Shown here: piece by piece, positions 30,768 through 53,275 of the stretch
Position numbering within the stretch: position 1 is the first letter of the stretch
Layout of the letters: every line of letters begins with the position of its first letter
From: Heptranchias perlo
Taxonomy: Eukaryota
DNA: 64,000 bases
Assembly (NCBI RefSeq): GCF_035084215.1
Contig: NC_090339.1
Coordinates: forward strand, 34,286,001 to 34,350,000
Reading direction: 5' to 3'
Program-made: the position numbers and the translations under genes
The notes under the pieces: model-generated
What the model was told of the DNA's origin: nothing
The model's input: only the letters and a program-made list of their open reading frames with translations
Database searches by the model: none

Positions 30768-32197
30768 TAAGAACATTAGAACATAAGAACATAAGAAATA
30801 GGAGCAGGAGTAGGCCAATCGGCCCCTCGAGCCTGCTCCGCCATTCAATAAGATCATGGCTGATCTGATCCTAACCTCAAATCTAAATTCATGTCCAATT
30901 TCCTGCCCACCCCCCCATAACCCCTAATTCCCTTTACTTCTAGGAAACTGTCTATTTCTGTTTTAAATTTATTTAATGATGTAGCATCCACAGCTTCCTG
31001 GGGCAGCAAATTCCACAGACCCACCACCCTCTGAGTGAAGAAGTTTCTCCTCATCTCACTTTTGAAAGAGCAGCCCCTTATTCTAAGATCATGCCCCCTC
31101 GTTCTAGTTTCACCCATCCTTGGGAACATCCTTACTGCATCCACCCGATCAAGCCCCTTCACAATCTTATATGTTTCAATAAGATCCCCTCTCATTCTTC
31201 TGAACTCCAATGAGTAGAGTCCCAATCTACTCAACCTCTCCTCATATGTCCACCCCCTCATCCCCGGGATTAACCGAATGAACCTTCTTTGTACTGCCTC
31301 GAGAGCAAGTATGTCTTCTCTTAAGTATGGACACCAAAACTGTATGCAGTATTCCAGGTGCGGTCTCACCAATACCTTATATAACTGCAGCAATACCTCC
31401 CTGTTTTTATATTCTATCCTCCTAGCGATAAACGCCAACATTCCGTTGGCCTTCTTGATCACCTGCTGCACCTGCATACTAACTTTTTGATTTTCTTGCA
31501 CTAGGACTCCCAGATCCCTTTGTACTGCAGTACTTTCCAGTTTCTCGCCATTAAGATAATAACTTGCTCTCTGATTTTTTCCTGCCAAAGTGCATAACCT
31601 CACATTTTCCAATATTGTATTGCATCTGCCAAATCTCCGCCCACTCACCCAGCCTGTCTATATCCCCTTGTCCCCTTGTAGGTTTTTTATGTCCTCCTCA
31701 CTTCTACTTTCCCTCCCATCTTTGTATCATCTGCAAACTTTGATATGTTACACTCGGTCCCCTCCTCCAAATCGTTAATATAGATTGTAAAGAGTTGGGG
31801 ACCCAGCACCGACCCCTGCGGAACACCACTGGCTACTGGTTGCCAGTCCGAGAATGAACCATTTATCCCAACTCTCTGCTTCCTGTTAGGTAACCAATCC
31901 TCCACCCATGCTAGAATATTACCCCCAATCCAGTGATTCTTTATCTTGAGCAATAATCTTTTATGTGGCACCTTGTCGAATGCCTTCTGGAAGTCTAAAT
32001 GCACTACGTCCACTGGTTCCCCTTTATCCACCCTGTACGTTATGTCCTCAAAGAACTCAAGCAAATTTGTCAGACATGACTTCCCCTTCATAAAGCCATG
32101 CTGACTTTGTCCTGTTAAATTATGTTTGTCCAAATGTTCCGCTACTGTCTCCTTAATAATAGACTCCAAAATTTTACGCACCACAGATGTTAGGCTA
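30768..32197 (-). mobile_element. Young 5'-truncated CR1 LINE (RT plus 3' UTR)
   Basis: ORFs 31687-32184 and 30854-31648 with [31 protein letters not shown]; (TTCTTATG)n tail; near-identical in protein to 35913-37320. Confidence 0.95.
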
Positions 32198-34402: not shown

Positions 34403-37320
34403 CTAAGTGTCACAAAACATATTTGAAAGTTCTTTATCTGAATGCACGTAGCATTCGTAACAAAATGGACGAGTTAACGGCACAAATAACTACGTATGGG
34501 TATGATCTTGTGGCCATTACAGAAACATGGCTGCAGGGTGACGACGACTGGGAATTAAATATGCCAGGGTATTTAACAATCAGGAAGGACAGGCAGGAGG
34601 GAAGGGAAGGGGAGGTGGGGTGGCTATGTTAATAAAGGAAGGAATCACTGTAATACAGAGAAATGATATTGGGACAAAGGATCAGGATAATGAAACAGTT
34701 TGGGTAGAGATAAGGAATAATAAGGGGAAAAAAACACTAGTGGGCGTAGTATATAGGCCTCCTAATAGTTGCAACTCTGCTGGAAGAAGTATTAATCAGG
34801 AAATAGTCGGGGCATGTAATAAGGGAACAGCTATAATTATGGGGGATATTAACTATCATATTAACTGGACAAATCAAATTGGGCAGGGCAGCCTTGAGGA
34901 AGAGTTTATGATCAGTATGTAACTGATCCTACAAGGGGGCAAGCAACCTTGGACCTGGTCCTGTGTAATGAGCCAGGATTAATTAATAATGTCCTAGTTA
35001 AGGATCCCCTTGGAATGAGTGACCATAACATGGTTACATTCCATATCCAATTAGAGGGTGAAAAGGTTGGTTCTCAAACAAGCGTACTGAGCTTGAATAA
35101 AGGAGACTATGATGGTATGAGGGCGGAATTGATTAAAGTGGACTGGGAAAATAGATTAAGGGGTAAGACGGTACAAGAGCAGTGGTGTTCATTTAAGGAG
35201 TTATTTTACAACTTTCAAAACAAATATATTCCACTGAGGAAAAAAGGGTGTAAAAGAAATGACAGCCATCCGTGGCTAAGTAAAGAAATTAAGGATAGTA
35301 TCCGACTAAAAACAAGGACATATATGGTAGCCAAACTTAGTGGGAGGATAGAAGATTGGGAAGTCTTCAAAAGACAGCAAAAAGTAACTAAAGGATTGAT
35401 TAAGAAAGGAAAGATAGATTATGAAAATAAATTAGCAAAAAATATAAAAACAGATAGCAAGAGTTTCTATAGTTATATAAAAAGAAAAAGGGTGGCTAAG
35501 GCAAACGTAGGTCCCTTAGAGGATGAGACCGGGAAATTAATGGTGGGAAACATGGAGATGGCTAAAATGCTGAACAAATATTTTGTTTCAGTCTTTACGG
35601 TAGAGGACACTAAGAATATCCCAACACTGGACAAACAGGGGGCTCTAGGGGGGGAGGAGCTAAATACGATTAAAATCACTAAGGAATTGGTACTTAGTAA
35701 ATTAATGGAAGTCAAGGCAGATAAATCCCCTGGACCTGATGGCTTACATCCTAGGGTCTTGAGGGAAGTGGCAGTGGGGATTGTGGATGCTTTGGTAATA
35801 ATTTTCCAAAATTTTCTGGACTCGGCAAATGTCCCGGCAGATTGGAAAACTGCTAATGTAACACCCTTATTTAAAAAGGGTAGTAGACAGAAGGCTGGAA
35901 ATTAGAGACCAGTTAGCCTAACATCTGTGGTGGGTAAAATTTTGGAGTATTATTAAGGAGACAGTAGCAGAACATTTGGACAAACATAATTTAATAGGAC
36001 AAAGTCGGCATGGCTTTACGAAGGGGAAGTCATGTCTGACAAATTTGCTTGAGTTCTTTGAGGATATAATGTACAGGGTGGATAAAGGGGAACCAGTGGA
36101 CGTAGTGTATTTAGACTTCCAGAAGGCATTCGACAAGGTGCCACATAAAAGATTATTGCTCAAGATAAAGAATCACTGGATTGGGGGTAATATTCTGGCA
36201 TGGGTGGAGGATTGGTTATCTAACAGGAAGCAGAGAGTTGGGATAAATGGTTCATTCTCAGACTGGCAACCAGTAGCCAGTGGTGTTCCGCAGGGGTCGG
36301 TGCTGGGTCCCCAACTCTTTACAATCTATATTAACGATTTGGAGGAGGGGACCGAGTGCAACATATCGAAGTTTGCAGATGATACAAAGATGGGAGGGAA
36401 AGTAGAGAGTGAGGAGGACATAAAAAACCTGCAGGGGGATATAGACAGGCTGGGTGAGTGGGCGGAGATTTGGCAGATGCAATACAATATTGGAAAATGT
36501 GAGGTTATGCACTTTGGCAGGAAAAACCAGAGAGCAAGTTATTTTCTTGATGGCAGGAGACTGGAAAGTACTGCAGTTCAAAGGGATCTGGGGGTCCTAG
36601 TGCAAGAAAATCAAAAAGTTGGTATGCAGGTGCAGCAGGTGATCAAGAAGGCCAACGGAATGTTGGCGTTTATTGCTAGGGGGATAGAATATAAAAACAG
36701 GGAGGTATTGCTGCAGTTATATAAGGTATTGGTGAGACCGCACCTGGAATACTGCATACAGTTTTGGTGTCCATACTTAAGAAAAGACATACTTGCTCTC
36801 GAGGCAGTACAAAGAAGGTTCACTCGTTTAATCCCGGGGATGAGGGGGTGGACATATGAGGAGAGGTTGAGTAGATTGGGACTCTACTCATTGGAGTTCA
36901 GAAGAATGAGAGGCGATCTTATTGAAACATATAAGATTGTGAAGTGGCTTGATCGGGTGGATGCGGTGAGGATGTTCCCAAGGTTGGGTGAAACTAGAAC
37001 GAGGGGGCATAATCTTAGAATAAGGGGCTGCTCTTTCAAAACTGAGATGAGGGGAAACCTCTTCACTCAGAGGGTGGTGGGTCTGTGGAATTTGCTGCCC
37101 CAGGAAGCTGTGGAAGCTACATCATTGAATAAATTCAAAGCAGAAATAGACAGTTTCCTAGAAGTGAAGGGAATTAGGGGTTACGGGGAGCGGGCAGGAA
37201 ATTGGACATGAATTTAGATTTGAGGTTAGGATCAGATCAGCCATGATCTTATTAAATGGCGGAGCAGGCTCGAAGGGCTGATTGGCCTACTCCTGCTCCT
37301 ATTTCTTATGTTCTTATGTT
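34403..37320 (+). mobile_element. Young CR1 LINE with almost complete ORF2 (APE endonuclease plus RT), a few frameshifts/stops
   Basis: LYLNARSI, VAITETWL, GVVYRPP, MGDIN, LDLV, SDHN (endonuclease); [25 protein letters not shown] (RT); (TTCTTATG)n tail. Confidence 0.96.
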
Positions 37321-37661
37321 CTCATTTCCACTCTAATCCTTCTACCAGTCACTTTAAATCTATGCCCCCTGGTTACTGACCCCTCCGCTAAGGGAAATAG
37401 GTCCTTCCTATCTACTGTATCTAGGCCCCTCATAGTTTTGTACACCTCAATCAAATCACCCCATAGCCTCCTCGATCGATTGAACGATTGCAACTGAATT
37501 GAAGGCCCTCAATTTTACTTCCGGGTTTTGCGTCTCCAAGCTGCGCAGCGGGCGTACTGCCCACCCGAATGACGTTCTGTGAGTTGGAGTACTTAAAGGG
37601 ACAGTGCAACAATGGATTTTGAAGGAGAAAGGAGGATCATAACAGAATACAGCATCATTGA

Positions 37662-39456: not shown

Positions 39457-39707
39457 TCACCAAGGGAATGCACAAGGGTATCCGACGCAATGTCATGCTT
39501 TTCATTTATATATGTGTTTTGCTAATTCCACATTAAATGGTATGATTCTCACCACCACTCTTGAGTCCCTTTTGTGAAATCGCCCTTTCATGTGCTTCAT
39601 CATGAACAACAGGACATGATGCCACCCATTGGGCACGTGTGCAATGATTGTATGTGTGGTTGAAGGACTGTTTTGTGCAATTCACATTATTTAATTTGCA
39701 GATGTCA

Positions 39708-40912
39708 TTATGAGAATCTGATGGATATGAGTGAATCCCTGGCATCACGGGCAGCCATGTGTGCCGCTGCTCTGGCGATGAATTCCCCATCTTCATCCTC
39801 CTCCTCCTCATCCTCATCCACTTCTTCAATGTTGGCAGCAGATGAGGATGCTTCATGAGCGCTTTCGAGATCCCCCACCTGTGGCCCTCTCTGCTGAGCG
39901 ATGTTGTGCTGGAAGCAACACACGACTATTATTCTGCACAACCTAGCTGGCGAGTACTGAAGGGCTCCCCCAGATCGATCCAGGCACCTGAAGCACATCT
40001 TCAGCATTCCTATCGCTTGTTCAATGACAGCCCTGGTGGTTATGTGACTGTCGTTGTACCACTGCTGTGCCTCGTTGGTGGGATTTCTCATGGGTGTCAT
40101 GAGCCATGTCTGCAGGGGTTATCCCTTGTCTTCAAGAAGCCAACCCTTAAGTCTGTCTTTGTGTGGAAGAGGTCCTTGATGTTGGACTCCCGCAAAATGA
40201 AGAAATCAAGGCAGCTGCCAGGGAATCTGGCACACACCTGCAGAAACCTCCTCTGGTAGTCGCAGGCCAGCTGTGCATTGATGGAGTGATATCCCTTTTG
40301 GTTTATGAACAGTCCTGGCTCATGTAGAGGTTCTCGTATTGCTACATGTGTGCAATCAATTGCACCCTCCGCCAGCGGAGAGTCATTCAGAGAGTTGAAA
40401 ACCACTGCCCTCTCAATCTGGCTGATATCATCGCGGGGGAAGTTGATGTAGTCAGAAGCCCTGGCAAACAAGCCATCCGTCATCTGTCATATGAACTTAC
40501 CGTGCAGATGACTGAGAGACCCTGGAAATGTCACCAGTGGCACCCTGGAAGGATCCAGAGGCGAAGAAATTGAGGGCAATGATGACTTTAACTGCGACGG
40601 GCAATGCGTGGCCACCAGGCCCAGCTGGAAGCAGCTCTGCATGAAGGAGCCTGCAGATGTCTGCGACCACCTGCTGACTCAATCCAAGCCTGAGTAGCTA
40701 CTGGTTCTCAGAAAGGTCCAGGAAGCTGAGTCTCTGCCTGTAGACCCTCTCACGTGGGTAGTGCCTCCTGCGACCTCGGCCCCTCCTTTGGACCCCTCTC
40801 TGCTCTTCTCCAGGTCCTTGTTGTGCACCTCTGTGTTGTACACCCGTAAATCCCAGAACTGAACAGCATGGTGATGTTCCTCCTCCTCCGATGTACTGTG
40901 GAATAGATCCAT
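39708..40912 (-). pseudogene. Harbinger DDE nuclease (HARBI1-like transposase), frameshifted
   Basis: LPVAVKVIIALNFFASGSFQ, GAIDCTHV, NQKGYHSINAQLACD, ARFPGS, TRAVIEQAIGMLKMCFRCL, VVCCFQHN across four ORF pieces. Confidence 0.92.
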
Positions 40913-43136: not shown

Positions 43137-44683
43137 ATAACTCCACATGATATCAAGAAAAGGCTGAATGCACTGGATACAACAAAGGCTATGGGCCCCG
43201 ACAACATCCCGGCTGTAGTGCTGAAGATTGTGCTCCAGAACTAGCCGTGTCTCTAGCCAAGCTGTTCCAGTACAGCTACAACACTGGCATCTACCTGACA
43301 ATGTGGAAAATTGCCCAGGTATGTCCTGTCCACAAAAAGCAGGACAAATCCAATCCGGCCAATTACTGCCCCATCAGTCTACAGCAAAGTGATGGAAGGT
43401 GTCGTCGACAGTGCTATCAAGCGGCACTTACTCACCAATAACCTGCTCACCAATGCTCAGTTTGGGTTCGGCCAGAACCACTTGGCTCCAGACCTCATTA
43501 CAGCCTTGGTCCAAACATGGACAAAAGAGCTGAATTCCAGAGGTGAGGTGAGAGTGACTGCCCTTGACATCAAGGCAGCATTTGACCGAGTGTGGCACCA
43601 AGGAGCCCTCGTAAAATTGAAGTCAATGGGAATCAGAGGGAAAACTCTCCAGTGGCTGAAGTCATACCTAGCACAAAGGACGATGGTAGTGGTTGTTGGA
43701 GGCCAATCATCTCAGCCCCAGGACATTGCTGCAAGAGTTCCTCAGGGCAGTATCCTAGGCCCAACCACCTTCAGCTGCTTCATCAATGACCTTCCCTCCA
43801 TCAGAAATGGGGATGCTCGCTGATGATTGCACAGTGTTCAGTTCCATTCGCAACCCCTCAGATAATGAAGCAGTGCGTGCCCTCATGCAGCAAGACCTGG
43901 ACAACATCCAGGCTTGGGCTTATAAGTGGCAAGTAACATTCGCGCCAGACAAGTGCCAGGCAATGACCATCTCCAATAAGAGAGAGTCTAACCACCTCCC
44001 CTTGACATTCAACGGCATTACCATCGCTGAACCCCCCCCACCATCAACATCCTGGGGGTCACCATTGACCAGAAACTTAACTGGACCAACCATATAAATA
44101 CTGTGGCTACGAGAGCAGGTCAGATGCTGGGTATTCTGCAGCGAGTGACTCACCTCCTGACTCCCCGAAGCCTTTCCACCATCTACAAGGCACAAGTCAG
44201 GAGTGTGATGGAATACTGTCCACTTGCCTGGATGAGTGCAGCTCCAACAACACTCAAGAAGCTCAATACCATCCAGGACAAAGCAGCCCGCTTGATTGGC
44301 ACCCCATCCACCACCCTTCACTCATTCACTCCCTTCACCACCGGCGCACTGTGGCTGCAGTGTGTGCAGCAACTCACCAAGGCTTCTTCGACAGCACCTC
44401 CCAACCCGCGACCTGTACCACCTAGAAGGACAACGGCAGCAGGCACATGGGAACATCAGCACCTGCACGTTCCCCTTCAAGTCACACACCATTCCGACTT
44501 GGAAATATATCGCCGTTCCTTCATCGTCGCTGGGTCAAAATCTGGAACTCCCTTCCTAACAGCACTGTGGGAGAACCTTCACCACACGGACTGCAGTGGT
44601 TCAAGAAGGCGGCTCACCACCGCCTTCTCAAGGGCAATTAGGGATGGTCAATAAATGCTGGCCTTGCCAGCAATGCCCACATC
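43137..44683 (+). mobile_element. LINE family B, RT region plus 3' UTR, frameshifted
   Basis: KAMGPDNIP, QFGF, LDIKAAFDRVWH, VPQGSILGP, ADDC motifs; 3' UTR ends at CCCACATC without A tail. Confidence 0.92.
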
Positions 44684-44684
44684 A

Positions 44685-45830
44685 CTGACTTGTGCCGTGT
44701 AGATGGTGGAAAGGCTTTGGGGAGTCAGGAGGTGAGTAACTCACTGCAGAATACCCAGCTTCTGACCTGCTCTTGTAGCCACAGTATTTATATGGTTGGT
44801 CCAGTTAAGTTTCTGGACAATGGTGACCCCCAGGATGTTGATGGTGGGGGATTCAGCGATGGTAATGCCGTTGAATGTCAAGAGAGGTGGTTAGACTCTC
44901 TCTTGTTGGAGATGGTCATTGCCGGCAATTGTCTGGCGCAAACGTTACTTGCCACTTATCAGCCCAAGCCTAGATGTTGTCCAGGTCTTGCTGCATGTGG
45001 CCATAGACTGCTTCATTATCTGAGGGGTTGCGAATAGAACTGAACACTGCAATCATCAGCGAACATCCCCATTTCTGACCTTATGATGGAGGGAAGGTCA
45101 TTGATGAAGCAGCTGAAGATGGTTGGGCCAAGGACACTGCCCTGAGGAACTCTTGCAGCAATGTCCTGGGGCTGAGATGATTGGCCTCCAACAACCACTA
45201 CCATCTTCCTTTGTGCTAGGTATGACTCCAGCCACTAGAGAGTTTTCCCCTTGATTCACATTGACTTCAATTTTACTAGGGCTCCTTGGTGCTACACTCG
45301 GTCAAATGCTGCCTTGATGTCAAGGGCAGTCACTCTCGCCTCACCTCTGGAATTCAGCTCTTTTGTTCATGTTTGGACCAAGGCTGTAATGAGGTCTGGA
45401 GCCGAGTGGTCCTGGCGGTACCCAAACTGAGCATCAGTGAGCAGGTTATTGGTGAGTAAGTGCCGCTTGATAGCACTGTCGACGACAGCTTCCATCACGT
45501 TGCTGATGATTGAGAGTAGGCTGATGGGGCGGTAATTGGCCGGATTGGATTTGTCCTGCTTTTTGTGGACAGGACATACCTGGGCAATTTTCCACATTGT
45601 CAGGTAGATGCCAGTGTTGTCGCTGTACTGGAACAGCTTGGCTAGAGGCGCAGCTAGTTCTGGAGCACAAGTCTTCAGCACTACAGCTGGGATGTTGTCA
45701 AGGCCCATAGCCTTTGCTATATCCATGGCACTCAACTGTTTCTTGATATCACGTGGAGAGAATCGAATTGGCTGAAGACTGGCTTCTGTGATGGTGGGGA
45801 TATCGGTAGGAGGCCGAGATGGATCATCCA
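44685..45830 (-). mobile_element. LINE family B, internal RT fragment, inverted against the previous copy
   Basis: [37 protein letters not shown]; lacks its 3' ~0.5 kb. Confidence 0.92.
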
Positions 45831-46558: not shown

Positions 46559-48301
46559 GTAAATTCTTCAGTTATGAGCACTATCTTAAGATGGAAATCT
46601 CATGAATTCGCCCTACAGCTTGCATAAAATTAAAGTAACATCTATTTCCTCCAGCCAGCATGTTTCAGCTGCAATGATTTCTCTCAACACCTTGCAACAA
46701 TTGTGATTCCTCACCCACTGTGCTTTCGGCCAACCAAAATCTAACAACTGCATTTGGCCTTTATTCCATTTTACTGCAGAATTATTAAAGGAACACAAAG
46801 TAGATTTTACCTTGTACATTGGATCTTTTATTCTACACAGTTGGATTTCACTTAGTAGTTGGATAATATTCTGGAAATGCTGAATGGTTCAGTTTCATTT
46901 TTAAGCCTCTTGTTCTTCATGGTAGTTGATTGTTTAAAGTCTTGTCATCTGATTGTGATTGGCATAGATGGGGAATTCAATAAGAAACTCTTCCTGTGGT
47001 GTTGAACTTCTATTTTTAGGATAACCCAGTGATAACATTGTGATCGATGTTTGCCAAGAATGTTGCAATGGATGAGATTTCACTCTTTTGCTGATGATTC
47101 TACACTACATTCATTAGCTTCCTTCAGATTGGACATCTTCATTTGTCTTACCAGTACAATCGTTAAGAAACTAAAGCCTAGAAATTATTTTTGTTGATAG
47201 TAACACACAAGCTCTTAAGGATAGGAATTCGTCTTGGCCAGTAGCACAAAATGGGCGTTACCGGATTGGCCGCCCATTAATTCAATTTCATTAATTGCAA
47301 TGGAGCTGAATATCAGGCGGGGCATATAACGGGCGGCCGATCTGATAACACCCATTTGGCATATCCCTCCATTTCCTTATTGGAGGTGTTATCCGATTCA
47401 AAACAAATACTAATAATGCCAACAGTAATTTCTGGACTTAAAGCACAATTTCTTCCATGGCATGGTGCCGTGCAAGATGGTGCAATGTAAATATTGTTTC
47501 TTTCAATTCTCTGAAGACGCTTTATTCATGTCTTTCACAATTCCAACCAACTGTTATCACTTCTGACTTTTAATGTCTCCAACTTTACTTCTTCTTCAAC
47601 TACTGACATTCTTGGCTTTATTATCTCCTTTGATCCCAAATGGAACTCCCATATTTCCTCTATTATTAAAGCTACTTTGAAGAGCTTGGTTTCATTGTTG
47701 TTGACAAACATTGTTTTCCATTGAACAGCTCTATAAAGCCCAAGTATGACTGAAACTTCAATACTACTCTTACATTTGGGAAAGATATTACAGCACCCCT
47801 CTTTCACTCATGAACAGGGTACAAGAAAAAACTTATGGTCTGATAGGCAATGCTTCTCTCACCTCTAACTTTCTTTCTTTTTCTCTCTCTGTTGAAACCT
47901 TTTTTGTCTCTTTTTTTATCAATACCATCTTGGTCACTGCTTCCTGTACTTCCCTTGTTCCTATTAAACCCCCTAATCTACTGTCCTACATGCTCCTCCT
48001 CCCTTTTTCCTCAGTGTTAAAATCAAGATTCATCACACTGTCTCCACTTTAACATTCTTTCCCATGATCTCAAAACTGTGGAACTCTAACTGTCCTAGTC
48101 TTCCCCACCTCCTACAATCTACTGGCTTTTAAAACTTAGGCTTAGTATTACCGAATTACTACTTCTTGATTTACCACGACTTCTCGTATCAACATTGCTG
48201 CATCCTACAGAATGATGTGGAGATGCCGGTGATGGACTGGGGTTGACAAATGTAAGGAATCTTACAACACCAGGTTATAGTCCAACTGTTTGATTTGAAA
48301 A

Positions 48302-48338
48302 TCACAAGCTTTCGGAGGCTTTCTCCTTCGTCAGATGA
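48302..48338 (-). ncRNA. Minimal type I hammerhead ribozyme motif (left arm)
   Basis: Reverse strand reads UCAU CUGACGA A GGAG-AAAGC-CUCC GAAA GC UU GUGA; stem I kept through a U-G wobble. Confidence 0.55.
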
Positions 48339-48947
48339 GCAAGTGTGGGATTCCATGGAAGGTTACCGCATTTATAGTCAGAGAACAATACCTGGTGATT
48401 ACAGATAATCTTTCCAACTGCCCGTTGTCAAGGCAATCAAAGTGTTCAGACAGAGTGATGTTACCTACAGGACCACCGAATACACAAACGGCCAGAACAC
48501 AAAACAGAGAAAGAGAGGGAGAGAAACATCCGAAAGGAAGAGAAAGACAGAGAATGACCCGTTGTGTTAAAAACAGATAACTTTTTTTCGCTGGTGGGGT
48601 TACATGTAGCGTGACATGAACCCAAGATCCCGGTTGACGGCCTCAACCGGAATCTTGGGTACATGTCACGCTACACGTAACCCCACCAGCGAAAAAAAGT
48701 TATCTGTTTTTAACACAACGGGTCATTCTCTGTCTTTCTCTTCCTTTTGGATGTTTCTCTCTCTCTCTCTCTCTCTCTCTGTCTTTTGTTCTGGCCGTTT
48801 GTGTATTCGGTGGTCCTGGAGGTAACATCACTCTGTCTGAACACTTTGATTGCCTTGACAACGGGCAGTTGGAAAGATTATCTGTAATCACCAGGTATTG
48901 TTCTCTGACTATAAATGCGGTAACCTTCCATGGAATCCCACACTTGC

Positions 48948-48984
48948 TCACCTGACGAAGGAGAAAGCCTCCGAAAGCTTGTGA
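48948..48984 (+). ncRNA. Minimal type I hammerhead ribozyme motif (right arm)
   Basis: UCAC CUGACGA A GGAG-AAAGC-CUCC GAAA GC UU GUGA: core CUGANGA and GAAA, stem I UCAC/GUGA, stem II GGAG/CUCC, palindromic AGCU in place of stem III; TATAAA at 48910 and AATAAA at 48991. Confidence 0.6.
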
Positions 48985-49790
48985 TTTTCAAATAAAACAG
49001 TTGGACTATAACCTGGTGTTGTAAGATTCCTTACATCCTACAGAATGGGCATTTACTCATCGCCTCGATTTGTCAATAAAAATAATGCAAATAGCACTCA
49101 TCTCAAGACATATGTAATGTTGACTCACTATGATCCACGAAATGAACACAATGTCATCTCTCACTTGTGACCCTCAGGTGATATTTTACTTCAGAAGAAA
49201 AAAAAGAATGTCATATTTGCCACACAACTCTCAGCTAACACTACAGCCAGGTCACTTCAAAATTCTTGGCAAAGGTCGCAATTCATTTGCAGGGACAGGA
49301 TTGGAAAAGAAAATAGCCAACAAATAAAACAAACTAATGATATTCTGCAAAAATGATTAACTTTGATTTGTCCCAGGGAACATAGGCTGCATGCATACAA
49401 TAAAACTTGTGGACACAAGGATATTAAGTTTTAGAATCAATATAATTAAAAGTCTTGTGATGAGTGTGCATTCATCATTTCAAAGATGTCATATATGAAA
49501 ATGCGGCCTCAAAGGCAACATATCTCCAAAACATCATACAGCTATAGAGCAAAGGAATTGTGATTGGCTCAGGTGGTCACTTATCTATTAAATTACCAAT
49601 CAAATATATGATTGACTACTGTGAATGACTCAAAAGTACCGATGAGGAACAAGTAAACAGCAGAAAACCTAGCAATCCATTTACGAAGCAGCAAATACCA
49701 GAAAAAGCCACCAGTTAAATAAATTCCTTACGTTGTTTTCAATTGCCCTTTTCTTACTTTGCTTGGGTAGTGCATACAGCTAGAAATAAT

Positions 49791-50391
49791 GGCCTATAAA
49801 TTCAGCCACAAAGCGCCTGTTTTTTGGGTGCTAAATGGACTCCTTAGCCTCTCGCATGGCAGTCAGGAAACGCATGCTCATTATAAGTTGGAAGTGCGCC
49901 GCCCACCATATTGGTAAAGGCCAAAAACTCGGCGTGCAGTACCCACACCTGAAACAGGCATTATGTAAATAAGGGGCCTAATGCCTGTTTTAGGCCCCCA
50001 CTGCAAGCACCGGCGCCGACTGCACTCAGGAAAACGTTGTTCAGGAGCAGGAGTGCTCCTCCTGACCCCACATTCAAAGAACACACTGCCAGCTGCTGCT
50101 TCCTCCCAACCCTCCCCCCTGCCCCCGATTTCCATTTATACCTCTCCCCCAACCCGACGATCGCCACTGCTGTCTCCCTCCCGGCCACTGCTATCTTCCC
50201 TGCCCCCCGCCATCGCTATTTCCTAATCGCCCCCCCTTCCCAGTCACCCCCGTTCCCGTTCCCCTTTAATCACTTACCTGAGGGTTACTGCTGGCGTCGC
50301 AGCAGCCCAATCTTCCATCCGCTTCGCTGGCTTGATCACTGCGCCACCCCTCCACCATGTGCCCAAAAATGGCGTGCTCAAATTTCTTGGC
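49791..50391. mobile_element. Non-autonomous Harbinger-type element
   Basis: GGCCTATAAATT / AAATTTCTTGGCC ends; GC-rich interior with features shared with 26651-27476 (CAGGAGCAGGAGTGCTC, C-rich repeats). Confidence 0.5.
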
Positions 50392-51435
50392 CGTTATAAC
50401 TTAAACACACAAAAATTATACAGTTCTAAAAAAAATGTTAAACCTATCCATAAAATTAGTTATTTAATGCTAGAAATATCTGCAAGAAGTTTTTCCCTAA
50501 ATAGACAAGATCTTGAGGCTTGAGTTGGAAATTTCATCTGGGTGTGTATCGCCCAGATATCCAGCTACTGTAGGTAAATTCTGTGCATTTGAGAGAAATA
50601 CATGATGAGAGTTATAGTTTTCTCAATATCCCTGTGGAACTACAAAACCATGAGTGTATTGCAGCAACCACATTTACAAATAACAACTGTGGGGTGCCAA
50701 TAGCAACAGAAAATTAGAAATAAAAAAGTTTGCCTTTTTACAGCATTTCATATAGCTTCAGCTATGAAATAAAAATTCTGAGTTAATGGCGATGTTTGGG
50801 ATTTTTTTTGTGTTGCTCCCAGACCATGGTGACTAACTACCTGTTCAGATACTGATCATTGGCGACTGAACAGTGGGAAAATCACTGCACAGTGCTACAC
50901 TAGTGAGAGCTTCAATAAGAACAACAAATCCTAAGTGAGAAATGAGGACAGGCAAAAAGTATCTTTCATAATTAAGTATATAATTGAGAAAAAGAAGGAG
51001 GGAGGAGAGAAGGATAAACAAATAAATGAAGTACTTGCATTTTAAGCAAATACTCCAAATCCAATGTGACAGAGAGAAAATAAAATATTTTAAAATGCAA
51101 ATAATTGTGAATAAGAGGCTTTGAGAAGGGAAGAAAAAAGTTACTTGCATCTTAAGCAAGTTTTGTAAAGTGGCAGGTGAATAATATTACAAATATATCT
51201 GTGATGTCTATATTTTTCAGTATCAGTAAGTTATGCTATAATTTTATCTCAAGTTAGTTCAGTGATACATTGTTTCATTAAATTTTTTAATGCAGCGATG
51301 GGTGAAGCACTGTCTCATTTAGACCGTAACAGGAGCATAGCAAACATCAGAAACTACATTCAAGGTGCCAGACTATCTGCAAGCAATACTACAATAGATT
51401 CACTCGCCTTATTTGAATTTGTTGTACTGTTTCAG

Positions 51436-51521: not shown

Positions 51522-53275
51522 GTAGGACAATAACATTTTAGCAAATAAACTACTTCACTAATGTTCATAGAAAATCAACTAGCATAAGGACTGTTTCTGG
51601 TCAAATGGCATTAGTGGAATTTATTGGCGCTTTTGAGCAGATTGCACTTGGAAACTGCGCACAAAGAATAGTTTTACACTGAGAGAAAGAGGGCATACTA
51701 TAGTCACACAGCTATTGTGTAACCACCAGGTCCCAGACAGTATATCACCCTTGCCTCTCTTAACTTGTGACCTCAGATCTGAGGGCTGCAGGCTCAGGCA
51801 CACATGACTGATTGCCCACTGTCAGATGTGGCTTGACCACCACAAGCAGTATCACCTCCATTTCTTTGTGGCCAAAACATACAAATACTCCAGGACAATA
51901 CTGAAAGGCAAGGACAATTCTTAACTCCTTATTTACACCACAAACCACCTCTCCTGATGTCTCTGCCTGCTCTGGCACCACTTTCTTTTCCACCGCCCCG
52001 CTCCCCGCCCCATCCCAACCTCCACTATGCAACACTCCGTCGTTTCTCCCCCTTAGTCCTTGTTACAGGTTAGGCCTTTTCCCAATATCTTTTCTCAAGC
52101 TTACGATTTGACAACAGTTTCCATGACCAGACTGAGTTCCTTATAAATTCTGCTTTATGTGGATTAGCATATCCCAGGTCTAATGATTAAGCCGAATTGC
52201 AGTAAATCACTTACTAGCAAGTAATTAAGATGCTCACCATGTTTTCCTATCACCTCAGAAGGCAGAAAATATTACACTACTGGACCAATATGTATAGGCC
52301 AAAAGTATTGTCCAGATTTTATTTACAAATAATAGTAAAAGAAGCAGAAAGGTTGGCAAGATGCTAGTGAGCACAATAGAACAACGCTTACATTGTAGGG
52401 TTGAATTATTAATATTTACTTTCAGAATGGGAAAAGAAATCTGGGATTAGGCTGACTCTTGTTTATTTGGACTGACATGCCTCACCCCTGACTGACGCAT
52501 CCTTGTAGCACCGTAACACAGTTCACGCTGAAAAAATCTTTGTTACGTTCCAAGATCCATGTCTTCATGTGGTATTGGGAGCACAGATGATCCTGCCAAT
52601 ATTAGGATTAATATTTCCATTTGTATCTAATGAAGTAAGCTAGTAGAAGACAACTAGCTCCATATTAGTGTGATGAAAAGAAGCTGTCACTGAATTTTTT
52701 TAGGATACAGCTTTGGCTCCTTTACTCAGTGCACTTAATGAAACATAGACACTGAACACATGTTCAGTAACACAATAACACCACTTTAATTAATTTTCTT
52801 GGACAGCACCAGTACGAACGCTTTGAGGTGCAAAGTGTTGTGTTCATTTGTATTAACTTGATCCACACGAATACTGCTGATAACAAAAAGTTCAGAGGTG
52901 TTGTTATATCGTCAATGCAATGTAGTGGGTGTTCAGCGTTGTAGCAGATCCATGACACATATCCATGCTTTAACACTAGCACTGAGAGGACCCATGGATC
53001 AGGTGTCCCTACTCTAGCACTGGCTCAATGGTTGCTATGAAATAAAGACACAGATTTAACCACAAAGACTAGCATGTTCAGTTTACTGTTGTGTTACTCA
53101 TTCGATTGTTTTTTCCTGTGTGTGTTTAGAGGGGAGTCAGGATAACTTGGTGTTGTAAAATTGTTTACAATTGTTTAGAGGGGAAAATTATAAATGTGTT
53201 GCTGACCCTGGTGTTTGGAGGAACATTTATTTTGCAGATTCTGATGTTTGGGAATGAATATGGTTTATTTTGCAG

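What the first reader, a model, noticed from the sequence alone, without database searches (positions are those of the whole stretch)
48201..49047. ~790-bp palindromic Penelope derivative with a hammerhead ribozyme motif on each strand, inside a formin intron
Seen: two ~390-bp arms with only a 5-nt spacer, a 14-bp target duplication, and in each arm the order ORF-end (GLNR.LG.MSRY), TATAAA, hammerhead core, AATAAA. The arm difference in stem I (C versus U) still pairs with G. Established: Penelope-like elements carry minimal type I hammerheads with palindromic stem III that are thought to work as dimers, and often insert with an inverted pLTR. Inference: this is a coding-free self-complementary unit with outward-facing mini-promoters. 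Transcription of either strand gives a long hairpin with one ribozyme. In the formin pre-mRNA the + strand ribozyme would be silenced by its own antisense arm, which could let such inserts be tolerated in introns, and the hairpin could be an ADAR or Dicer substrate. It may belong to a non-autonomous retrozyme-like family.
Basis: partly seen in the sequence, partly recalled or inferred. Interest (0 to 1): 0.7.

Follow-up and report, generated by a model that had tools for sequence, protein, structure and literature searches.

The report
Twin-primed Penelope palindrome, one-off insertion
This 820-base mirror-image insertion in a formin intron is a real but routine stub of an abundant, protein-coding Penelope-like jumping gene, not a self-spreading ribozyme element; its two halves were likely copied separately from the two cut ends of the target DNA and joined at a short sequence match.

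Summary
The palindrome, 14-bp duplication, hammerhead motifs and formin intron are real. Each arm is the 3' end of an RT + GIY-YIG Penelope/Poseidon-type family (6,486 exact hammerhead cores). Head-to-head pairs are the family norm: 43 of 56 sampled sites. 70 of 73 pairs carry the tail on exactly one arm, none on both. The exact fold point recurs at two other loci, but these are only 77-80% identical, with their own target duplications. Fold points occur all along the element and sit on microhomologies (37 of 42, 15% expected). So the junction recurs independently and no unit is spreading. Junctions peak just upstream of the hammerhead (853 versus 7), likely the transcript start, not at the ribozyme cut. 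Best model: both nicked target strands prime cDNA at the two RT start sites, and the cDNAs join head-to-head. The shape is published; I found no genomic demonstration of twin priming in print. The scan noted this pattern many times before, in this genome and others.

The parts
48201..48214 (.). Left copy of 14-bp target-site duplication; its last 3 nt (ATG) also match the element tail end
   Evidence: D7; 3-nt overlap with element at both ends; family TSD mode 12 bp
48215..48249 (-). 35-nt PLE tail: sequence between the two RT start sites, ending just before the parent's ATG
   Evidence: ATG and ORF start follow it in L023
48250..48637 (-). Left (inverted, tailed) arm: last ORF codons, 3' UTR/pLTR, TATA box, hammerhead motif
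48302..48338 (-). Minimal type I hammerhead motif of the left arm (U-G in stem I pair 1)
48636..48642 (.). Head-to-head junction: 2-nt microhomology GA (48636-48637) and 5-nt spacer CGGCC, both continuous with the right arm's ORF sequence
   Evidence: same junction at L031/L114 and L033/L122
48643..49036 (+). Right (tail-less) arm: end of the GIY-YIG ORF (..GLNRNLGYMSRYT*), 3' UTR with (CT)n, pLTR
48910..48915 (+). TATA-like box of the pLTR; family arm ends pile up about 26-43 nt downstream of its start (inferred transcript start)
48948..48984 (+). Minimal type I hammerhead motif: stem I UCAC/GUGA, core CUGACGA, extra A, stem II GGAG/CUCC, palindromic AAGCUU; predicted cut after 48980
   Evidence: features as in PMC4209133
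48991..48996 (+). AATAAA (right arm only)
49034..49047 (.). Right copy of the 14-bp TSD; its first 3 nt (CAT) also match the element end
46559..51435 (+). Host intron of an FH2-domain (formin) gene

Best explanation
The element is a single 5'-truncated insertion of an abundant protein-coding Penelope/Poseidon-type retrotransposon, likely made by two-ended target-primed reverse transcription. Inferred steps: the GIY-YIG endonuclease nicks both strands about 12-14 nt apart. One 3' end primes at the tail-less RT start (after ..TTACA) and the other at the tailed start about 37 nt further on, just before the ATG. Both cDNAs run towards the RNA 5' end; here they reached about 400 nt, on a read-through RNA that includes an upstream copy's ORF end. 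The two cDNA ends, or one end folding back, anneal at a 2-nt microhomology, and fill-in gives TSD-tail-arm/arm-TSD. The hammerheads are passengers of the pLTR, and the copy is most likely a dead end. Shown: anatomy, family membership, one-tail rule, fixed start sites, microhomology at junctions, independent origin of same-junction copies. Inferred: two priming events, the transcript start, one template for both arms, and that uncut RNA is the template.
For: Parent ORF with RT (PF00078). 815 homologues at E<=1e-20, the best named ones from sharks; 27 of the 120 listed carry GIY-YIG PF01541 by my count of the listing. 43 of 56 unbiased chromosome-1 sites hold a head-to-head pair; 70 of 73 pairs have the tail on exactly one arm, 3 on neither, 0 on both. 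Outer ends cluster at -1 (19 of 50) and +37 (19 of 50); TSDs are 12-14 bp in 34 of 50. The tail sits on the longer arm in 12 and the shorter in 14 of 26 palindromes. A pure fold-back of one cDNA cannot put the tail on the shorter (copied) arm, as in the window copy. Junction microhomology of 2 nt or more in 37 of 42 clean junctions, 15% expected. The two arms share rare alleles in 15 of 34 pairs versus 59 of 5,016 cross-locus arm pairs. Near-equal arm lengths in 5 of 25 long pairs, 1.55 expected, p=0.012. In vitro, a Poseidon protein nicks and extends both strands, starts RT at two sites bracketing the tail, is predicted to be a dimer, and uses uncut RNA (PMC11167929).
Against: No intermediate was observed; genomic junctions cannot separate end-to-end annealing of two cDNAs from fold-back of one cDNA rescued by a short second cDNA. 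L117-L119 show only 16-45 nt of inverted sequence followed by other DNA, so transient fold-back does occur. 13 of 56 sites showed no partner within the fetched stretch, and 2 tail-to-tail adjacencies were flagged at stretch edges and not examined. The window copy has no rare allele shared by its arms, and shared rare alleles show no A-to-G excess (5 of 32), so 'one RNA molecule' is not shown; some shared alleles are small-subfamily variants. Pfam gave no GIY-YIG hit on the parent protein itself. PMC11167929 reports RT initiation without target homology, whereas many TSD ends here overlap the element by 1-3 nt (the measure is biased upward).
Confidence: 0.75

Rival explanations
1. Self-priming: one cDNA (or an antisense template, as proposed for Adineta Penelope) folds back at a local inverted repeat and copies itself. 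The tail is added or trimmed when the second end is resolved, with at most a very short second cDNA.
For: Junctions sit on local inverted repeats and recur there: 10 of 46 at one imperfect 9-nt stem class, 6 at the GAGG/CCTC stem, 3 at the window's GA/TC. Arms can be identical (387/387, 368/368). Short inverted pieces at L117-L119. Proposed in PMC3846280 Discussion.
Against: The tail is on the shorter (copied) arm in 14 of 26 palindromes, including this one, and on exactly one arm in 70 of 73 pairs. 20 of 25 long pairs have arms more than 30 nt apart in length, often hundreds.
Confidence: 0.17
2. The palindrome is a non-autonomous, retrozyme-like unit that is itself transcribed and re-inserted by the PLE protein.
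For: Two other loci share the exact junction and tail side, each with its own TSD. Both arms keep the pLTR, TATA box and RT start sites.
Against: Those loci are 77-80% identical. Same-junction copies are never near-identical (max 0.875), and the tail side is mixed within the two largest junction classes. A neighbouring control window has about as many fold points (38 versus 45). The arrangement is not tandem.
Confidence: 0.05
3. The palindrome is an assembly or library fold-back artefact.
For: Palindromes are a known artefact class (own knowledge); no listed contig spans the whole element.
Against: TSD; one-sided tail; 6 substitutions in 344 sites between the arms; a short-read contig at single-copy depth matches the junction with 0 differences (borderline overlap); the same anatomy at dozens of loci.
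Confidence: 0.02

Closest known systems
EN+ Penelope-like elements with inverted pLTR and one-sided tail (Adineta Pen2a and Fig. 2c derivative, PMC3846280; general scheme in PMC8557442 Fig. 2 legend; D. virilis Penelope, PMC2377424)
   Same: Head-to-head inverted 5'-truncated copy, 30-40-bp tail at one end only, TSD around the whole unit, TATA in the pLTR, palindromic junction.
   Different: Here both arms are truncated to about 400 bp with no intact ORF. The passages I read ascribe junction palindromes to self-priming on an antisense template and the tail to EN resolution; the counts here favour two priming events.
Poseidon of Anolis carolinensis (PAc; PMC11167929)
   Same: RT plus C-terminal GIY-YIG; two RT start sites bracket the tail; both strands nicked and extended; hammerhead in the pLTR; uncut RNA used as template.
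   Different: In PAc the ORF starts at hammerhead stem II and RT starts 111-118 nt into the ORF; here the ATG follows the tail, about 120 nt below the core. The main text read does not derive inverted insertions from the two start sites.
Minimal type I hammerheads of metazoan PLEs (PMC4209133)
   Same: No helix III, palindromic 15.2-16.2, extra nucleotide between A9 and G10.1, short stem I. That paper already notes dual motifs 100-700 bp apart on opposite strands; here the cores are about 620 bp apart.
   Different: Stem II is 4 bp plus an A-C mismatch in this subfamily. Other subfamilies pair that position as G-C (36), A-U (22) or C-G (3) of 219 motifs.
Non-LTR retrozymes (bioRxiv 10.64898/2026.07.22.740005)
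   Same: ORF-less, pLTR-related, type I hammerhead.
   Different: Retrozymes are tandem head-to-tail arrays with a hammerhead per unit; this is one inverted pair, and copies do not descend from each other.
Twin priming of L1 (recalled, no call)
   Same: Both target ends prime cDNA; the cDNAs join at microhomology and give an inversion.
   Different: In L1 the two pieces are non-overlapping parts of one RNA; here both cDNAs cover the same 3' region from start sites about 37 nt apart, so the product is a palindrome.

Membership tests
EN+ Penelope-like element (Penelope/Poseidon clade) | Parent ORF encodes an RT | tested here: met
   PF00078 E=4.5e-9 on L034 ORF; arm is contiguous with that ORF
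EN+ Penelope-like element (Penelope/Poseidon clade) | [quoted passage not shown] | tested here: met
   VVYLIRCRKGC..WYIGET at the C-terminus fits the description in PMC8557442; homologues carry PF01541; no direct Pfam hit on this protein
EN+ Penelope-like element (Penelope/Poseidon clade) | DKG motif N-terminal to RT | tested here: met
   PADKGGAIV in L034 and L035; motif named in PMC8557442
EN+ Penelope-like element (Penelope/Poseidon clade) | pLTR with 30-40-nt tail, inverted 5' copy, TSD | tested here: met
EN+ Penelope-like element (Penelope/Poseidon clade) | Placement in Penelope/Poseidon rather than Neptune or Nematis by RT phylogeny | not tested
   No tree built; a CxxxxCxxC stretch precedes the EN, so the clade label is tentative
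Minimal type I hammerhead | Conserved core, stems I and II, palindromic replacement of stem III | tested here: met
   Core intact in both arms; stem II pairs 1-4 and stem I pairs 1-4 canonical or G-U in at least 96% of 219 motifs; pair 5 of stem II varies A-C/G-C/A-U/C-G. Motifs were selected on the core, so this is not an independent test of the core
Minimal type I hammerhead | Self-cleavage (as dimer or protein-assisted) | not testable with these tools
   No assay. No pile-up of arm ends at the cut: 0 of 94 ends at -60..-50 (sample selected on an intact core in one arm)
Non-LTR retrozyme | Tandem head-to-tail units, at least two with hammerheads | tested here: not met
   Arrangement is head-to-head; definition
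Non-autonomous mobile unit | Copies with the same boundaries and junction descend from one another | tested here: not met
   Same-junction copies 77-80% identical; class-wide max 0.875; mixed tail side

The most novel reading that the evidence does not exclude
The insertions of this shark family are a genome-scale record of how Penelope-like elements integrate. A protein dimer primes both nicked strands at the two RT start sites, most cDNA pairs run off the RNA 5' end just upstream of the uncut hammerhead, and the pair is stitched head-to-head at 2-5-nt microhomologies. That would explain the inverted pLTR, the one-sided tail and recurrent fold points with one mechanism, without an antisense template.
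Probability: 0.6. Interest if true: 0.6.

Novelty: new member of a known kind. Interest (0 to 1): 0.36.

Why it matters
The locus is ordinary: one of thousands of dead stubs. The value lies in the family statistics. How PLEs make tandem and inverted structures is called undefined in PMC8557442. The one-tail rule, fixed start sites, microhomology junctions and the sharp junction peak above the hammerhead make twin priming testable with the existing Poseidon in vitro system. A practical lesson: in these genomes a recurring fold point is not evidence of a non-autonomous family; here it recurs across subfamilies because the underlying coding sequence is conserved.

Tried and rejected
Rfam search: no hammerhead family hit, 4 chance miRNA-hairpin hits. 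Unconstrained cofold of two hammerhead copies did not give the textbook AAGCUU dimer: uninformative. PDB sequence search of the parent ORF: 0 hits. Pfam on the C-terminal parts: no GIY-YIG hit. The protein atlas could not be searched with this protein. Expression: no RNA holder listed; runs guessed to be RNA were contigs that cover only the repeat and not the unique flanks, so nothing is said about transcription, editing or small RNAs. A DNA fold was aimed at coordinates that missed the junction hairpin, and a bacterial promoter scan does not apply; neither was used. In one search the mirrored hammerhead coordinates were wrong and that fold was discarded. Microhomology values allowed a mismatch and were replaced. 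The comparison of the parent ORF with the window's LINE-type ORF showed no real similarity. Rejected: a single junction hot spot (the control window is as rich); ribozyme cleavage as the source of template ends in this subfamily (about 3 of the first 50 of 82 listed junctions end at the cut, counted by eye); an A-to-G signature of one RNA molecule (5 of 32). Literature searches for twin priming or two-cDNA models of PLE inversion listed no such paper; subscription journals are not covered, and no supplementary files were read, so novelty is not proven.

Full report
Observation. The window holds inverted arms at 48250-48637 and 48643-49036 with a 5-nt spacer, inside a perfect 14-bp direct repeat at 48201-48214 and 49034-49047. 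The arms match at 378 of 388 aligned bases. Between the left repeat and the left arm lie 35 extra bases (48215-48249) with no counterpart on the right. Each arm has a TATAAA and a hammerhead core; AATAAA is intact only on the right. Rfam does not detect the motif. It has the features of the minimal PLE hammerhead in PMC4209133 (parts 1-2 of 4 read), which also mentions pairs of such motifs 100-700 bp apart on opposite strands. The host is an FH2-domain gene on the + strand. The stem-I U of the left arm is a rare allele (2 loci versus 67 with C), so it is most likely decay and not compensation. An artefact is unlikely: there is a TSD, the arms have diverged, and a contig at single-copy depth matches the junction exactly, though with borderline overlap and possibly from the same individual.

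The family. The right arm has 1,771 candidate matches in the genome; the full-length ones among the 40 scored are 91-98% identical. The 32-nt hammerhead core alone occurs exactly 6,486 times. [quoted passage not shown] Its homologues include shark proteins at 81-93% and many RT + PF01541 proteins. In a tandem copy (L023) the 35-nt extension leads directly into ATG and an open frame, so it is the PLE tail. An inverted 5'-truncated copy, a 30-40-bp tail at one end and a TSD around the unit are the published norm (passages of PMC3846280; PMC8557442; PMC2377424).

How usual is the shape? I fetched every exact-core site in the first 28.8 Mb of contig C1 (56 sites): 43 hold a head-to-head pair and 13 show none within the fetched stretch. 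Among 73 pairs from all loci analysed (window included, one locus counted twice), 70 carry the tail on exactly one arm, 3 on neither and none on both. Of 54 pairs that passed the anchors, 50 gave a TSD (mode 12 bp; 12-14 bp in 34). The outer ends cluster at -1 and at +37, counted from 49036, in 19 of 50 each.

Is the palindrome a spreading unit? The exact junction occurs at 3 places: the window, L031 and L033. The other two have their own TSDs and the tail on the same side, but are only 77-79% identical by blastn (78% and 80%). A looser pattern finds 10 loci folded at this site, 45 in the surrounding 30-nt window and 38 in an adjacent control window. I fetched all 45 and compared the 34 palindromes (window included) that had long arms. 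Same-junction pairs average 0.73 identity (max 0.875, n=46), different-junction pairs 0.72 (max 0.98, n=515); the window copy's nearest relative (94%) has another junction, and the tail side is mixed within the two largest classes. Junctions recur because they sit on short matches: 37 of 42 clean junctions have 2 nt or more of microhomology against 15% expected, and 4 of 46 were complex. The window's is a 2-nt GA. The non-autonomous reading is therefore not supported.

Where do arms end? Exact-pattern counts of near-palindromic junctions in 30-nt windows are 82 above -41 (includes the ribozyme cut at -56), 853 above -85, 7 above -131, 45 above -391 and 38 above -432. The anchors differ in reach (both arms exact in 1, 6 and 2 of 31 mixed-subfamily palindromes for the first three). 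That accounts for about 3-fold of the 120-fold drop from -85 to -131, but it leaves the -41 comparison uncertain. In the unbiased sample 44 of 94 arm ends fall at -100..-77 and none at -60..-50 (one arm per site was selected to hold the core). The peak lies about 26-43 nt below the TATA start at -126, so I infer it is the RNA 5' end, and that uncut RNA is the usual template, as in vitro (PMC11167929, parts 1-2 of 4 read). The window copy's 400-bp arms need a read-through RNA that includes an upstream copy's ORF end (inference).

Mechanism. PMC11167929 shows a Poseidon protein nicking and extending both strands, from two RT start sites that bracket the tail. If each nicked end uses one site, the product is TSD-tail-arm/arm-TSD, which is what is seen. 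Pure self-priming (PMC3846280 Discussion) cannot give a tail on the copied, shorter arm, yet that is the case here and in 14 of 26 palindromes (12 have it on the longer arm). The arms come from one source: 15 of 34 pairs share a rare allele against 59 of 5,016 cross-locus pairs, and arm lengths are coupled (5 of 25 within 30 nt, 1.55 expected, p=0.012). Against: the window copy has no such shared allele, there is no A-to-G excess, some shared alleles are subfamily variants, and L117-L119 show short fold-backs, so a hybrid of fold-back and a second cDNA is not excluded.

The intron claims. A transcript across the element is predicted to form one hairpin (-725 kcal/mol; 778 of 822 bases paired; 37 of 38 hammerhead positions paired to the left arm). 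That is a by-product of the geometry; nothing here shows selection for it, editing or dicing, and minimal hammerheads are inactive alone. A retrozyme is a tandem array (bioRxiv 10.64898/2026.07.22.740005, part 1 of 5 and passages; supplements not seen), and this is not one.

Verdict. A real, ordinary member of a known kind. The family statistics support twin priming, for which six literature searches listed no paper. Earlier notes of this scan reach the same reading in this genome and others; they were read after my main tests and are not counted as support. L1 twin priming is recalled, not looked up.

Noticed in passing
window 53123-53184: A 36-bp stub of a related PLE subfamily (pLTR end only) between two copies of a 13-bp direct repeat, in the next formin intron; read by eye, blast hit.
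   Followed up: partly
window 43141-45758: Two inverted pieces of a LINE-type RT element with arms 86-96% complementary, 1.3-2.4 kb apart; could be an inversion or two nearby insertions.
   Followed up: no
window 30775-32161 and 35948-37325: Two copies of a LINE-type RT element in opposite orientation, 96-99% alike, about 4-6 kb apart; the second holds a 429-aa open frame.
   Followed up: no
window 39533-40486, - strand: Broken frames that look like a Harbinger/HARBI1-type transposase (motif recalled, no family search).
   Followed up: no
L117, L118, L119 (about 1500): Fold-back junctions whose inverted arm is only 16-45 nt before other DNA begins; in L119 it continues into an internal part of the same element.
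   Followed up: partly
L011 and L012: The same palindromic insertion and flanks on two small contigs (1,500 of 1,500 upstream bases identical): a duplicated or redundantly assembled region; counted once.
   Followed up: no
junction lists: Many junctions carry short fillers copied from nearby element sequence, as in repair by microhomology-mediated joining.
   Followed up: no
family-wide, hammerhead stem II: The most abundant subfamily in my sample has an A-C mismatch at stem II pair 5 (149 of 219 motifs) where others have G-C, A-U or C-G; sampling favoured this subfamily.
   Followed up: partly
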